A stretch of DNA of 64,000 nucleotides from Thermodesulfobacteriota bacterium (GTDB lineage: Bacteria; Desulfobacterota; Binatia; Bin18): contig OZ219926.1 in the NCBI GenBank assembly GCA_964291405.2, forward strand, positions 2,368,001 through 2,432,000, read 5' to 3'. Position 1 is the stretch's first letter; every line of letters starts with the position of its first letter. The translations under genes were made by a program, and so were the position numbers. Below are positions 16,581 to 64,000 of this stretch, piece after piece. The notes beneath the pieces are model-generated. The model made no database searches. It worked only from the letters and a program-made list of their open reading frames with translations, and had not been told where the DNA came from.

Positions 16581-16621
16581 GACGAATGAGGCAGGGCAAA
16601 GGATGCAAAATAGAGAGGAAC

Positions 16622-16723
16622 AAAAAAGGCCCGCAGGAAAAAGGAGGGGAAACCTGCGGGCCTCGATACACGCTGAGTCGGGGAGAACTCAGCTATGTAT
16701 GCGTGTGTTCATAAACAGTTATG
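16622..16723 (-). ncRNA. Putative sRNA with two C-rich hairpin loops, sibling copy 1
   Basis: TTCCCA-17-TATAAG promoter (16758-16730); loops CUCCCCG and UUUCCCCUCCUUU; U-tract terminator; homologous to 61695-61799. Confidence 0.75.
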
Positions 16724-16816
16724 GGAACCCTTATAGCATGAACAGACAGGCTTGGGAAGATAATGCTGCCTGAATTATGCGAATCTATATTATTAGAGAA
16801 ATTGATAGGTCCATAT

Positions 16817-18229: not shown

Positions 18230-18283
18230 AAAGAGGAAACGTGTCCAGCATCTCTCTATCATTGGAGAGCACGTTTCCTCTTT
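18230..18283. repeat. Palindromic element family A, copy 4
   Basis: AAAGAGGAAACGTGTCC...GAGCACGTTTCCTCTTT. Confidence 0.85.
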
Positions 18284-18368
18284 TCGTCCGAACTGTAGCT
18301 GCCAAATCACAAAAGATGAATGGCCTCGCCTACAGTGGGAGTGACCTGAGCAGATGCGGCCCGACGGC

Positions 18369-18421
18369 GTCACACATTTTTCACCGGAGCGTCACAATGT
18401 TGTCATACAACGAGGAAACAT
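18369..18421 (+). promoter_or_regulatory. Pho-box promoter 1 in the mgtE-ppk1 interval
   Basis: Half-sites GTCACA (18369), TTCACC (18380), GTCACA (18391), GTCATA (18402); -10 candidate AAACAT. Confidence 0.75.
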
Positions 18422-18429
18422 AGGGGGAA

Positions 18430-18511
18430 GAAACGCTATCCCTACCCCCCGCGCTGCCAGGGCATGTTGATCCTCCTCCCTAGGGTCGCCCGCCCCTGGC
18501 AGCGCCCCCCT
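18430..18511 (+). ncRNA. Putative PhoB-dependent hairpin RNA, tandem copy 1
   Basis: 5' AACGCUAUCCCUACCCCCC, stem GCGCUGCCAGGG/CCCUGGCAGCGC, apical loop CCUCCCU. Confidence 0.65.
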
Positions 18512-18539
18512 TAGTGTCTTGAACTCTTATGCTGCACGA

Positions 18540-18593
18540 ATAACCGGACTGTCATTGAGCTGTCACTCAGGTGTAAAATCTCCCCGATAAGAT
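18540..18593 (+). promoter_or_regulatory. Pho-box promoter 2 in the mgtE-ppk1 interval
   Basis: Half-sites ATAACC (18540), GTCATT (18551), GTCACT (18562), GTAAAA (18573); -10 TAAGAT at 18588. Confidence 0.78.
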
Positions 18594-18596
18594 AGA

Positions 18597-18682
18597 GAAC
18601 GCTATCCCTACCCCCCGGCGCTGCTAGGTGCCGTGTCGATCTCCCTCCCTAGGATCACACGCCCTGGCAGCGCCCCCTCCTC
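18597..18682 (+). ncRNA. Putative PhoB-dependent hairpin RNA, tandem copy 2
   Basis: Same 5' tail, stem GGCGCUGCUAGG/CCUGGCAGCGCC, loop CCCUCCCUA. Confidence 0.65.
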
Positions 18683-18845
18683 TCGCTACTGTGGGTTCAT
18701 AACCTGATGCTATCCTGGTCGATAGAAACAGTAGCGTCCTGGTGTGGGCTGGTCGGGTAGCGCAGATCGCTCTACGGGGTTGCTATTCAGCGTGCTGAGC
18801 TTATATCTATCGTTGTCGGAGCGTACACCAGATGTCTGATAGAAG

Positions 18846-18895
18846 GAGGAAACGTGTTCTCCAATGGTAGAGAGATGCTGAACACGTTTCCTCTT
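18846..18895. repeat. Palindromic element family A, copy 5
   Basis: GAGGAAACGTGTTC...GAACACGTTTCCTCTT; near-identical inverted copy of copy 4. Confidence 0.85.
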
Positions 18896-18910
18896 GACGG
18901 CGGTATCTGC

Positions 18911-61694: not shown

Positions 61695-61799
61695 AAAAGA
61701 AAAAGGCTCGCAGGGTAAAGGAGGGGAAACCTGCGAGCCTTGAACCATCGTCAGGACGGGGAGGACCTGACGATGATGACCTGAACGATTTGTTCAATG
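61695..61799 (-). ncRNA. Putative sRNA with two C-rich hairpin loops, sibling copy 2
   Basis: TTGTTA-17-TATAGT promoter (61834-61806); loops CUCCCCG and UUUCCCCUCCUUU; U-tract. Confidence 0.75.
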
Positions 61800-61883
61800 A
61801 GGAGGACTATAGCCGAGGTAGCCGACTTTAACAAGATAAGTTTAACTGAATTAAATTTGTTTTATTTATAAGATATACTTATT

Positions 61884-63176
61884 TTAAAATAAGATTTGGG
61901 TCTGGACGCGCAGGCGATCGGCACCCGTGCTCTTGCCCACAAATGGGTCTCCATCTAGGAAGCTGTAGTCCACCTGGAGTTTGACCCCGTGCCCGTACAG
62001 ATAGTAATTAAATCCTCCCATGTATTCTCGCATATCCCCTGCCGTTCTGGGGTTATTGGCAAACTGAAAATCCACCCCGGAGACCCGCCCAGCTATCTCC
62101 AGTTTTTCCGTCAGATAGTACCCAATCTGGCCGTAGTAGCCCCAGTCATGGCCGGTCTTGTTGAGGGATTCGAGATTATTACGGCGGTAGTAGCCCGCAG
62201 CCTGAACACTGAGGCTCTGATAACGGAAGCCACCATCGATGGTGACATTGGTCGTACGGTCGCCGGGCATCACGTTCTGAAAGCGGGAAGCTTGATCGAC
62301 TGGGTTAAAAGCCGCGGCCATCCCGATTGAAAGCTGCGGGTCCGGGGCCAGGGTTGGGGAGCTTTCCAGATAGCCGTAGGGATCAAGGATGTCGTATTCC
62401 AGACGCCCCTGCCAGGCGACTTCGGCGCCAGCGTTCTGCTGTCCGCCCGCGTCCAAGGCTCGGATACTGTTAGTGGCCAGCGCGTGATAGGACAGCCGAC
62501 CGACTTTCCCACTGATGTGCAGGCCAATCGCCCGGTGTAAATTAAAGGCATAATCCGCTTCGGACAGGTCCGGGAACAGCAGGTGTCCAGGGTGTGCGTA
62601 GAACTGACGGCTATAGGGCAGGAGAAAGCGCCCAGCTTGCGCCCTCAGGTATGGGGAGTGACTATACTGCATCCACCAGTCAAGCAGGGTCGATCGGTTG
62701 CTGTTGCCGAGAGTGGTCGTTTCGTACTGAAAGAAATATTTGACTTTGGGATCAAAGACATTCCCGGAAAACGCCAAGTGAGCCAGAGCCACGTCGAAAT
62801 TATTGCGGCTTCGACCAGCATCCGGGGCCGTCAGCATGTATCTAGCTTGCAGGAAACCATTGAGGGTGAGCGAGTAACGTCCATCCTTGCTGCGGATAAA
62901 AAACCCCTTGTCATACATATCCTCTGCAGCAAGGCCTTGCTTACGAGAGCCTGCCGCATAACCAAAATCGACTCCTTTCTCGGTCCGTTCCTTCTCCTTT
63001 GCTTCGAGTTCCATCATGCGGCTCTCAAGAGCCTGCATGACCTTGTGCTGCGCGGCGAGTTGTTGGCGTAACTCGCCGAGCTCATCGGCCAACACCGGGG
63101 TCACAAGGATGCTGAGAATAATACCTGCAATGAGACGAACTCGGGCGACAAAACCTCCTCTTCCTCTCATATCCAT
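61884..63176 (-). CDS. Outer-membrane porin (OprO/P-like fold)
   Basis: Signal peptide, coiled-coil N-terminus, amphipathic strands, GFNYYLYGH, C-terminal Phe; GGAG SD. Confidence 0.75.
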   Translation of the reverse strand: MDMRGRGGFVARVRLIAGIILSILVTPVLADELGELRQQLAAQHKVMQALESRMMELEAKEKERTEKGVDFGYAAGSRKQGLAAEDMYDKGFFIRSKDGRYSLTLNGFLQARYMLTAPDAGRSRNNFDVALAHLAFSGNVFDPKVKYFFQYETTTLGNSNRSTLLDWWMQYSHSPYLRAQAGRFLLPYSRQFYAHPGHLLFPDLSEADYAFNLHRAIGLHISGKVGRLSYHALATNSIRALDAGGQQNAGAEVAWQGRLEYDILDPYGYLESSPTLAPDPQLSIGMAAAFNPVDQASRFQNVMPGDRTTNVTIDGGFRYQSLSVQAAGYYRRNNLESLNKTGHDWGYYGQIGYYLTEKLEIAGRVSGVDFQFANNPRTAGDMREYMGGFNYYLYGHGVKLQVDYSFLDGDPFVGKSTGADRLRVQTQILF

Positions 63177-63354
63177 ACTCCTTCCTTTGGACGGTGAGGC
63201 GACTGTGGGAGCTCGATGCGAAACTGTACTGGGATAAAACGCGGGTAGGCGGACCGCTCCCACGGGCTCCCAGCCACGGCATAGTGACGTAATCTATGAC
63301 ACAGTACGAGAGCGATCGCTACGAAATTTTCAGCGCCGGAGTCGGTTTGAACGA

Positions 63355-63393
63355 AAAGGCCCGCAGGAGAGAGGAAACCCGCGGGCCTTTTTG
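63355..63393 (-). terminator. Terminator after ureC (bidirectional hairpin)
   Basis: AAAAGGCCCGCAGG...CCCGCGGGCCTTTTT. Confidence 0.8.
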
Positions 63394-63398
63394 TCTCG

Positions 63399-64000
63399 TC
63401 AGAAGAGAAAATAGCGTTGGGCGAGAGGGAGGACCTGAGCCGGCTCACAGGTAAGTATTTCACCGTCGGCCTTGACGACGTAGGTCTCCGGGTTGACCTC
63501 TATCTCCGGCAGGGCCTGGTTGTGGATCAAGTCTTTTTTCCCGACGCTCCGACAACCCTGGACCGGGACGAACGGCTTCTGGAGCCGTAAGCGCTGACCT
63601 AGGCCGTTTTCGTAGGCGGCGCGCGAAACAAAGCTCATGGACAGCGAGGCCGGGGCTCGCCCCAGGTGGCCAAACATCGGCCGTCCGAACACCGGTTGGG
63701 GGGTTGGAATTGAGGCGTTGGGATCGCCCATCGCCGCCCAGGCGATGAAACCACCCTTGAGGATCAGTTCCGGTTTCACACCAAAGAATTTCGGCTCCCA
63801 CACCACCAAGTCGGCCAGCTTGCCCACCTCAATCGAGCCCACCTGGCGGGCGATGCCGTGGGTCAGCGCCGGATTGATGGTGTACTTGGCAATATAACGT
63901 TTGACCCGAAAATTATCGTTCTCTCCCGTCTCTTCCGGCAGGCGACCGCGTTGGACTCGCATCTTATGGGCGGTCTGCCAGGTACGGAGTATCACTTCTC
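63399..64000 (-). CDS. ureC: Urease alpha subunit (3' part only)
   Basis: [49 protein letters not shown]. Confidence 0.97.

What the first reader, a model, noticed from the sequence alone, without database searches (positions are those of the whole stretch)
16622..16777. Unannotated sibling sRNA family (copy 1; partner at 61695-61853) with a shared upstream motif
Seen: two loci 45 kb apart share a minus-strand layout: TAATTCAG-N6-TTATC abutting a -35/17 bp/-10 promoter (TTCCCA..TATAAG; TTGTTA..TATAGT), then a ~100-nt RNA with hairpin 1 (different stems, same CUCCCCG loop) and a terminator hairpin AGGC(C/U)CGCAGG-UUUCCCCUCCUUU-CCUGCG(G/A)GCCU showing a compensatory change. Established analogy: alphaproteobacterial AbcR1/2 sRNAs use two C-rich anti-SD loops and are activated by a LysR regulator. 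Inference: co-regulated trans-acting sRNAs that block ribosome-binding sites.
Basis: partly seen in the sequence, partly recalled or inferred. Interest (0 to 1): 0.8.

Follow-up and report, generated by a model that had tools for sequence, protein, structure and literature searches.

The report
Sibling anti-Shine-Dalgarno small RNAs in Binatia
Two copies of a previously undescribed ~100-base regulatory RNA gene sit in this uncultured soil bacterium (class Binatia); their never-changing C-rich loops look built to cover ribosome-binding sites, which makes this a new family of a well-known kind of regulator.

Summary
Window 16622-16777 and 61695-61853 (minus strand) hold two paralogous genes for a ~100-nt RNA. 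Each has a shared promoter architecture, a variable 5' part, a hairpin with the loop CUCCCC, and a terminator hairpin with a 15-nt loop, UUUCCCCUCCUUU plus two variable bases.

The RNA was found in every genome searched of one Binatia family (36/36 by BLAST, 18/18 by covariance model). Outside that family there were only two weak matches in 132 genomes. Across 63 distinct copies, 23 of 26 stem pairs show compensatory changes. The loops stay fixed: the SL3 core in 60/63 copies and UCCCC in 61/63. The terminator loop repeats eight bases (CCUCCUUU) of this genome's own 16S rRNA 3' end.

No Rfam family reaches threshold. The best hits are sX13 at 26 bits and ar14 at 36 bits. No Hfq, ProQ or CsrA gene was found.

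The best reading is a pair of chaperone-independent, trans-acting sRNAs that pair with G-rich Shine-Dalgarno regions, as sX13, LhrC and the cuckoo RNAs do. Expression, targets and the regulator are untested. My target predictions were not specific. The AbcR/LysR analogy is not specifically supported. This is a new member of a known kind.

The parts
16789..16796 (-). Copy 1: distal conserved promoter block CTAATAAT (about -73 to -66)
   Evidence: Conserved at a fixed distance in copy-1 and copy-2 orthologues.
16759..16777 (-). Copy 1: shared upstream motif TAATTCAG-N6-TTATC, abutting the -35
   Evidence: It is one of only 2 such sites in the genome.
16730..16758 (-). Copy 1: predicted promoter, -35 TTCCCA (16753-16758), 17-nt spacer, TG + -10 TATAAG (16730-16738)
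   Evidence: Read. TGCTATA is conserved in orthologues. It was not called by the simple scan because the -10 ends in G.
16622..16723 (-). Copy 1: predicted ~100-nt sRNA (start inferred, not mapped)
   Evidence: Fold -43.2 kcal/mol, z -7.3. Covariance model R1 scores 105.5 bits on 16619-16704.
16666..16700 (-). Copy 1: hairpin SL2 with apical loop CUCCCC (16680-16685)
   Evidence: 14 pairs, all with compensatory changes among 63 distinct copies. The loop holds UCCCC in 61/63.
16626..16664 (-). Copy 1: terminator hairpin SL3 with 15-nt loop UUUCCCCUCCUUUUU (16638-16652), followed by a U-tract to 16622
   Evidence: 12 pairs, 98% paired, 9 with compensatory changes. The loop core is invariant in 60/63. 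It shares CCUCCUUU with the 16S 3' end.
61865..61872 (-). Copy 2: distal conserved promoter block CTTATAAA
61835..61853 (-). Copy 2: shared upstream motif TAATTCAG-N6-TTATC
61806..61834 (-). Copy 2: predicted promoter TTGTTA-17-TATAGT
   Evidence: Found by the promoter scan, 9/12 matches.
61695..61799 (-). Copy 2: predicted ~105-nt sRNA. SL1 61781-61797; SL2 61744-61777 (loop UCCUCCCCGU 61756-61765); SL3 61703-61741 (loop 61715-61729); U-tract
   Evidence: Fold -45.2 kcal/mol, z -8.3. R1 scores 87.1 bits.
63352..63390 (-). Related but separate: the ureC terminator hairpin, homologous to SL3 only (loop GGUUUCCUCUCUCC)
   Evidence: BLAST hit; sequence; R1 36 bits. It has no SL2 and no promoter motif.

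Best explanation
These are two paralogous, independently transcribed genes for a ~100-nt trans-acting small RNA that is specific to one family of the class Binatia.

Each gene has its own promoter, with a conserved three-block upstream architecture shared by both paralogues. This architecture suggests either a common dedicated activator or a common strong promoter (inferred).

The RNA consists of a variable 5' part, a hairpin presenting CUCCCC, and a Rho-independent terminator whose unusually large loop presents UUUCCCCUCCUUU.

The most likely mechanism (inferred, not shown) is that the two C-rich loops pair with G-rich Shine-Dalgarno regions of mRNAs, best of all the GGAGGGG type. That pairing would occlude the ribosome-binding site and lower translation and/or mRNA stability. 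It would need no Hfq, ProQ or CsrA, none of which was found in the genome. sX13, LhrC, RsaE-type and cuckoo RNAs work in this way.

Shown here: the sequence elements, the fold, the family-wide conservation, the covariation and the loop invariance. Inferred: transcription, the start site, the targets, the direction of regulation and the regulator.
For: Presence:
- BLAST with copy 1 matched 36/36 genomes of the same family and 0/24 genomes of other families in the class.
- Model R1 matched 18/18 genomes of the family, against 2 weak (~31 bit) matches in 132 genomes outside it.
- The 13-mer of the loop occurs in 40/41 family genomes, mostly at the sRNA genes.
- There are 2-3 copies per genome.

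Structure:
- In 30 sequences, 95.2% of cells are paired and 13/26 pairs show double changes; 0/500 shuffles reach this, and slid controls give 33-45%.
- In 63 distinct sequences, 91.8% are paired and 23/26 pairs show double changes; again 0/500 shuffles reach this.

Loops under selection:
- The SL3 loop core UUUCCCCUCCUUU is kept in 60/63 copies and UCCCC in SL2 in 61/63, while the stems vary.

Anti-SD character:
- The genome's 16S 3' end reads GGAUCACCUCCUUUCU, and the loop shares CCUCCUUU with it.
- Exact complements of at least 10 nt to the loop lie at many ribosome-binding sites, for example upstream of an amidohydrolase (15 nt), Lon (14 nt) and an enoyl-CoA hydratase (13 nt).
- The Lon site AAGGAGGGG is kept in 12/14 genomes of the genus.

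Independent gene:
- Copy 1 always follows mgtE in the genus, but the downstream gene varies (GST or ACR3).
- Copy 2 is convergent with a thiolase gene.
- In other genera the flanking genes are unrelated.
- The promoter motif is kept in 43/63 distinct copies in strict form and 49/63 in relaxed form.

Analogues:
- Both window copies have sX13 as their best Rfam hit (26.5 and 25.6 bits).
- Copy-2 orthologues hit ar14 (35.7 and 32.8 bits).
- The published mechanisms of sX13 (PMC3771888, passages), the cuckoo RNAs (PMC4615179, passages) and LhrC (PMC4132741, passages) all use C-rich loops against SD or G-rich sites. In LhrC this includes the terminator loop.

Chaperones:
- No Hfq, CsrA or ProQ was found in a genome that is 97.5% complete.
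Against: - There is no expression evidence of any kind.
- Duplex energies of the two loops against 4481 predicted 5' regions were no better than those of shuffled C/U loops. Complementarity to ribosome-binding sites is therefore not specific evidence.
- The best single predicted target, an amidohydrolase with 15 nt of complementarity, keeps the site only in the 4 closest genomes. It is lost in orthologues at 76% identity.
- The Lon site weakens outside the genus.
- Strict invariance of 13 loop bases is more than simple SD pairing would require. It could point to a protein or another fixed partner.
- The promoter motif could be inherited from the duplication and kept as a general strong-promoter element rather than as a regulator's binding site.
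Confidence: 0.6

Rival explanations
1. Decoy or sponge RNA. The invariant loops would bind and titrate a fixed partner rather than many mRNAs. The partner could be an RNA-binding protein that recognises C/U-rich loops, or ribosomal protein S1 / the 30S subunit. The sRNA could also act as a bulk competitor of the 16S anti-SD.
For: 13 loop bases are invariant in 60/63 distinct copies across a whole family, which is stricter than most seed regions. There is 8-nt identity with the 16S 3' end. No conserved mRNA target was found.
Against: No candidate protein is known, and none of Hfq, CsrA or ProQ was found. Known protein sponges carry many repeats of the binding motif, whereas this RNA has two different loops. 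All characterised RNAs with this look pair with mRNAs.
Confidence: 0.12
2. The element is not a regulator in its own right. It would be the structured 3' end (terminator plus a stabilising hairpin) of the upstream genes (mgtE, and the 459-aa ORF or ureC), and the 'promoter' would be fortuitous AT-rich intergenic sequence.
For: Only about 20 nt separate the mgtE stop (16817) from the conserved promoter block, with no terminator in between. The sRNA terminator therefore also ends the upstream transcript. An SL3-like hairpin on its own terminates ureC.
Against: The same two-hairpin unit with the same upstream blocks sits behind unrelated genes in other genera. The promoter blocks are kept at fixed spacing in both paralogue lineages while the neighbouring bases vary. 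A plain terminator does not need invariant 6-nt and 13-nt loops or a 15-nt loop.
Confidence: 0.08
3. Cis-acting leader or attenuator of the downstream gene (the GST-like gene after copy 1).
For: Copy 1 lies 78 nt upstream of a gene on the same strand and ends in a terminator.
Against: The GST gene is missing downstream in several orthologous loci, for example L016, L020, L021 and L026. Copy 2 faces a convergent thiolase gene and has nothing downstream to control.
Confidence: 0.03

Closest known systems
sX13 of Xanthomonadaceae (Rfam RF02232; PMC3771888)
   Same: Similar size (115 nt against ~100 nt), with an unstructured or variable 5' part followed by stable hairpins with apical C-runs, the last of which is the terminator. 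sX13 represses mRNAs carrying G-rich motifs near the start codon and acts without Hfq. It is the best Rfam hit for both window copies.
   Different: Scores of 25-26 bits lie far below the 50-bit gathering threshold. sX13 has three C-rich loops (4C, 4C, 5C), against two here. It belongs to a different phylum and a different locus (next to polA). There is no detectable common ancestry, so the resemblance is most likely convergent.
LhrC1-5 of Listeria monocytogenes (PMC4132741)
   Same: A multicopy sibling sRNA of about 110 nt with redundant C/U-rich motifs in a hairpin loop and in the terminator loop. These bind the SD region of targets, Hfq is dispensable, and all copies share a conserved promoter element that depends on one dedicated regulator, LisR.
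   Different: LhrC uses a UCCC motif and a third single-stranded site. It occurs in Firmicutes and shows no sequence or covariance-model similarity to the RNA here. Its regulator and inducing stress are known, whereas here both are unknown.
ar14 / 'cuckoo' RNAs of Alphaproteobacteria (Rfam RF02344; PMC4615179)
   Same: Modular adjacent hairpins whose stems drift through compensatory changes while an anti-SD-like loop motif stays fixed, with several copies per genome. It is the best Rfam hit for two copy-2 orthologues.
   Different: Scores of 33-36 bits lie below the 58.8-bit threshold. In the cuckoo RNAs the same motif, CCUCCUCCC, sits in every loop, whereas here the two loops differ (CUCCCC and UUUCCCCUCCUUU).
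AbcR1/2 with VtlR/LsrB
   Same: Sibling sRNAs with two pairing motifs, and a dedicated transcription factor acting on the sRNA promoter.
   Different: No Rfam hit to an AbcR-type family was listed at E<=10. The promoters lack the VtlR box GCAT-N3-TG-N3-T. A LysR-type regulator is not indicated.

Membership tests
sX13 (RF02232) | Covariance-model score at or above the 50-bit gathering threshold | tested here: not met
   26.5 and 25.6 bits for the two window copies. Orthologues score 24.9-26.0 bits. Nothing reached gathering threshold in the whole window.
sX13 (RF02232) | Three stable stem-loops, each with an apical CCCC or CCCCC motif | tested here: not met
   Only SL2 (CUCCCC) and SL3 (CCCCUCC) carry C-runs. 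The 5' hairpin is weak, not conserved and has no C-run. The sX13 features are taken from PMC3771888.
sX13 (RF02232) | Xanthomonadaceae; encoded at the polA locus | tested here: not met
   The homologues come from records titled Binatia/Binatota. The flanking genes are mgtE and thiolase.
sX13 (RF02232) | Hfq-independent repression of mRNAs with G-rich motifs near the start codon | not testable with these tools
   No Hfq gene was found, which is compatible with this feature. Regulation itself cannot be tested here.
ar14 / cuckoo (RF02344) | Covariance-model score at or above the 58.8-bit gathering threshold | tested here: not met
   35.7 and 32.8 bits, in 2 of 16 orthologous loci only. ar14 is not listed for the window copies at E<=10.
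ar14 / cuckoo (RF02344) | Every hairpin loop carries CCUCCUCCC | tested here: not met
   The loops are CUCCCC and UUUCCCCUCCUUU. The cuckoo motif is taken from PMC4615179.
AbcR1/2 | Sequence/structure homology, and a VtlR box (GCAT-N3-TG-N3-T) in the promoter | tested here: not met
   No such Rfam hit was listed. Reading both promoters shows no GCAT-N3-TG. The box is taken from PMC7486931.
LhrC-type multicopy CU-rich sRNA (works-like, not homology) | Several near-identical copies; C/U-rich motif in an internal loop and in the terminator loop; shared promoter element | tested here: met
   2-3 copies per genome. Loop sequences. Shared promoter blocks. No sequence homology to LhrC is claimed, and no such Rfam hit was listed.
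Generic trans-acting base-pairing sRNA gene | Own promoter and Rho-independent terminator, free-standing with respect to neighbouring genes | tested here: inconclusive
   Promoter-like elements are present and conserved, with a GC-rich 12-bp stem plus U-tract. The flanking genes vary. These are consensus matches only, and no transcript ends are available.
Generic trans-acting base-pairing sRNA gene | Conserved structure with covariation and conserved single-stranded seed | tested here: met
Generic trans-acting base-pairing sRNA gene | Expressed as a discrete small transcript; conserved mRNA targets | not testable with these tools
   No RNA run was listed as holding the sequence. Target prediction was not specific.

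The most novel reading that the evidence does not exclude
The invariant terminator loop may be a deliberate copy of the ribosome's own anti-SD (CCUCCUUU) extended by CCCC. If so, these siblings, driven by a promoter architecture used nowhere else in the genome, would act as a dedicated ribosome mimic. They would out-compete 30S subunits on the roughly 1% of genes with GGAGGGG-type Shine-Dalgarno sites. That would be a global translational switch standing in for the Hfq/CsrA networks that this phylum lacks. A narrower variant: in the window's genus the RNA also kisses the G-rich apical loop (UAGGGAGGGAG) of a lineage-specific tandem structured leader of mgtE, the gene it always follows, which would close a feedback loop on magnesium transport.
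Probability: 0.12. Interest if true: 0.65.

Novelty: new member of a known kind. Interest (0 to 1): 0.42.

Why it matters
Binatia (Binatota) is an uncultured, globally distributed soil and sediment lineage. Full-text searches found no paper that mentions it together with small RNAs. This family gives a first, well-supported handle on post-transcriptional regulation there, in a genome where none of the classical RNA chaperones or global RNA-binding regulators was found. It adds another independent lineage to the list of bacteria that have arrived at C-rich apical loops, terminator loop included, aimed at the Shine-Dalgarno sequence. That strengthens the view that this design is a general, chaperone-free solution. 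The covariance model built here could be used to annotate the family in metagenomes and to look for it in metatranscriptomes. It does not open a new kind of mechanism.

Tried and rejected
- **Rfam at gathering thresholds** over the whole window gave 0 hits.
- **Expression:** no RNA holder was listed for the sRNA sequence in public runs. Read laying was not used, because only contig-type holders of unknown kind were offered.
- **Energy-based target prediction.** I used a home-made gene finder (4481 genes). Loop-to-5'-region duplex energies were indistinguishable from those of shuffled C/U loops, so I rejected this as evidence.
- **Exact-complement targets**. The top hit, an amidohydrolase, is conserved only among the 4 nearest genomes. 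Lon is conserved within the genus, but a strong purine-rich SD is expected there anyway. Both remain candidates only.
- **A long complementary target conserved across the family.** The 13-mer pattern search returned mostly the sRNA genes themselves.
- **A wider regulon for the promoter motif.** A regex search and a PWM scan of the genome found no further site.
- **A conserved adjacent regulator gene.** Clustering of flanking ORFs in 42 loci found only mgtE, thiolase, ACR3, GST and shadow ORFs.
- **A third copy at 63349-63413.** It is only a homologous terminator hairpin behind ureC.
- **A small peptide.** The only ATG-started frame in copy 1 (7 codons) is not kept in orthologues (read).
- **The mgtE leader as the ancestral target.** The leader element is confined to part of one genus (10/14 genomes, and 0/137 elsewhere in the sample). 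The sRNA is family-wide, so I rejected the leader as the main target.
- **Earlier-findings look-ups** by place, sequence and words gave nothing on this RNA.
- Supplementary files of the papers were not consulted.

Full report
**Observation.**
- TAATTCAG-N6-TTATC lies at 16759-16777 and 61835-61853. That is 2 matches in the window against 0.02 expected from shuffles, and no other exact match exists in the 4.95-Mb genome.
- The motif abuts a promoter-like -35/17/-10 in each copy. Copy 1 has TTCCCA..TATAAG preceded by TG. Copy 2 has TTGTTA..TATAGT, which the promoter scan also called.
- About 7 nt downstream of each -10 begins an RNA of roughly 100 nt. It folds far better than shuffles: -43.2 and -45.2 kcal/mol, z -7.3 and -8.3.
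- The fold comprises a weak 5' hairpin, a long hairpin SL2 with the loop CUCCCC, and a 12-bp GC-rich terminator hairpin SL3 with a 15-nt loop (UUUCCCCUCCUUU plus two bases), followed by a U-tract.

**Organism.** The window lies in a 4.95-Mb, 57.8% G+C genome. A public-collection scan for the loop sequence brought in many records titled Candidatus Binatia/Binatota. Among those loci, every one that truly matches the RNA model (42 loci at 47 bits or more) carries such a title or a vague or doubtful MAG label. Loci from Chitinophaga, Paenibacillus and others, which only contain the reverse complement as an ordinary ribosome-binding site, do not match the model. Earlier notes on the same genome also call it Binatia.

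**Is it a real, selected RNA?**
- BLAST with copy 1 found it in 36 of 36 other genomes of the same family and in 0 of 24 genomes of 13 other families of the class.
- I aligned the SL2-SL3 core of 30 copies and tested the structure. 95.2% of cells are paired and 13 of 26 pairs show changes on both sides; none of 500 shuffles reaches these values, and slid controls give 33-45% pairing. I then built covariance model R1.
- In the window's own genome R1 finds just the two copies (105.5 and 87.1 bits) plus a 36-bit match that turned out to be the ureC terminator alone.
- Over 151 genomes of the class R1 matches 18 of 18 genomes of the family. Outside the family it gives 2 weak matches (~31 bits) in 132 genomes.
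- A larger model-guided alignment has 86 matches, 63 of them distinct. It shows 23 of 26 pairs with compensatory changes and 91.8% pairing, again beyond all 500 shuffles. An alignment fitted to the model leans towards its structure, but the MAFFT-based test agrees.
- While the stems drift, the loops do not. UUUCCCCUCCUUU is intact in 60 of 63 distinct copies and UCCCC in the SL2 loop in 61 of 63.
- Genomes carry two or three copies.

**Independent gene or appendage?**
- Within the window's genus, copy 1 always follows mgtE (24 of 30 loci fetched). The gene after it varies: a GST-like gene in 16 loci, and otherwise ACR3 or something else.
- Copy 2 always faces a convergent thiolase gene (10 of 10 loci). 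It follows either a 459-aa ORF with no Pfam match or ureC directly.
- In other genera of the family the neighbours are unrelated: PhoX-like, BacA and CoA-transferase genes. Clustering the flanking ORFs of 42 loci shows no further recurrent neighbour and no adjacent regulator gene.
- The RNA is therefore not a leader of the downstream gene and not tied to one upstream gene.
- It does sit only about 20 nt behind the stop codon of the upstream gene, with no terminator in between. Its terminator must therefore also end that transcript, and a processed 3'-UTR form is possible in addition to the promoter-driven form.

**Promoter.**
- Alignments of orthologues of both paralogues and a list of 44 distinct promoter sequences show three blocks at fixed spacing upstream of the -10. 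These are CT(A/T)ATAA near -70, TAATTCAG near -50, and (C/G)TTATCTT running into the -35.
- The strict B-C pattern stands upstream of 43 of 63 distinct copies and a relaxed form upstream of 49 of 63. More distant members keep mainly TTAT-N-TTG(C).
- A 43-nt weight matrix scores 65 and 52 bits at the two sRNA genes and at most 7 anywhere else in the genome.
- The architecture is thus private to these genes. It fits a dedicated activator bound next to a weak -35 (copy 1 has TTCCCA). It would equally fit a conserved strong-promoter/UP-like arrangement, and I cannot tell which.
- It does not contain the VtlR box, and it does not conserve the classic LysR box; both boxes are as given in PMC7486931.

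**How it probably works.**
- The genome's 16S rRNA ends ...GGAUCACCUCCUUUCU. The SL3 loop contains the same CCUCCUUU preceded by CCCC, so it is complementary to AAAGGAGGGG. The SL2 loop is complementary to GGGGAG.
- Hfq, CsrA and ProQ were not found in this 97.5%-complete genome.
- The nearest Rfam models, all below threshold, are sX13 (26.5 and 25.6 bits against 50), ar14 (35.7 and 32.8 bits against 58.8, copy-2 orthologues only) and MmgR (23.8 bits).
- sX13 is a 115-nt, Hfq-independent RNA whose C-rich apical loops repress mRNAs with G-rich motifs at the start region (PMC3771888, passages read).
- The cuckoo/ar14 RNAs keep an anti-SD-like loop motif while their stems drift (PMC4615179, passages).
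- LhrC1-5 of Listeria are multicopy siblings with UCCC motifs in a hairpin loop and in the terminator loop. These bind the SD of lapB without Hfq, and all copies depend on one regulator through a shared promoter element (PMC4132741, passages).
- The Binatia RNA has the same design, so the most likely mechanism is occlusion of G-rich Shine-Dalgarno sites by loop-mediated pairing. This is an inference from anatomy and analogy. Nothing here shows it.

**Targets.**
- I predicted 4481 genes with a simple codon-bias finder. Loop-to-5'-region duplex energies were no better than for shuffled C/U-rich loops, so energy alone has no discriminating power.
- Exact complements of 10 nt or more to the SL3 loop number 195 in the genome, and many sit at ribosome-binding sites. 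The longest are upstream of an Amidohydro_2 gene (15 nt), Lon protease (14 nt), an enoyl-CoA hydratase (13 nt), two glyoxalase-fold genes, a luciferase-like monooxygenase, a GST and an S4-domain (Hsp15-like) gene.
- GGAGGGG lies within 20 nt upstream of the first candidate start of 51 of 4481 genes.
- The amidohydrolase site is kept only in the 4 nearest genomes and is lost in orthologues at 76% identity.
- The Lon site AAGGAGGGG is kept in 12 of 14 genomes of the genus, is shortened in a second genus and is different elsewhere.
- No long complementary site conserved across the family exists apart from the sRNA genes themselves.
- Targets therefore remain open, and Lon is the best single candidate.

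**Membership and novelty.**
- The RNA fails the defining tests of sX13, ar14/cuckoo and AbcR (scores, loop motifs, taxon, locus, promoter box). It shows no sign of common descent with them, but it works like them by every feature I could check.
- It is absent from Rfam 15 at curated thresholds.
- Full-text searches for Binatota + 'small RNA' and Binatia + sRNA returned no paper. Subscription journals and supplementary files were not covered.
- I therefore class it as a new member of a known kind. It is solid and useful for annotation, and of moderate interest.

**Limits.**
- There is no expression data: no RNA run was listed as holding the sequence.
- The start sites are inferred from promoter geometry.
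- The related genomes are kin, so the counts are not independent.
- Genomes outside the family were sampled, not exhausted.

Noticed in passing
window 18405-18705 (-), between mgtE and the divergent ppk: The mgtE 5' leader holds two tandem structured units of about 95 nt that are 84% alike. Each has a long stem, GCGCUGCCA/UGGCAGCGC, flanked by G-runs, and a G-rich apical region, UAGGGAGGGAG. The unit occurs nowhere else in the genome and has no Rfam match even at E<=10. It is present, single or tandem, upstream of mgtE in 14/20 genus genomes fetched. By model R2 it occurs in 10/14 genomes of the genus and 0/137 others sampled. Covariation is weak because the sequences are close. It is a candidate lineage-specific riboswitch or attenuator for a Mg2+ transporter. 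Its G-rich loop, and the stretch UCGGGGAGA at about 18590-18598, are complementary to the sRNA loops.
   Followed up: partly
window 18845-18900 and 18235-18295: A hairpin-forming element of about 58 nt covers the start of ppk (plus strand). It recurs as its reverse complement just upstream of the likely mgtE start, where it creates a 14-codon upstream ORF resembling the ppk N-terminus (read).
   Followed up: no
window 63352-63390 (-): The ureC terminator hairpin is homologous to the sRNA's SL3 (same stem; loop GGUUUCCUCUCUCC; R1 36 bits), but it has no SL2 and no promoter motif. In genomes lacking the 459-aa ORF, copy 2 follows ureC directly. The hairpin may therefore be a relic left by the insertion of that ORF.
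   Followed up: partly
whole genome G000: No Hfq, CsrA or ProQ homologue was detected in a genome that is 97.5% complete.
   Followed up: partly
loci L050, L085, L089, L110, L098, L102 (public records): Metagenome bins labelled 'Enterobacteriaceae' or 'Klebsiella pneumoniae' carry full-scoring copies of this Binatia-type sRNA (47-89 bits). Those bins are probably mislabelled or mixed.
   Followed up: no
window 61884-63263 (-): A 459-aa ORF upstream of copy 2 has no Pfam match at E<=0.001. It is present in only some genomes of the genus.
   Followed up: no
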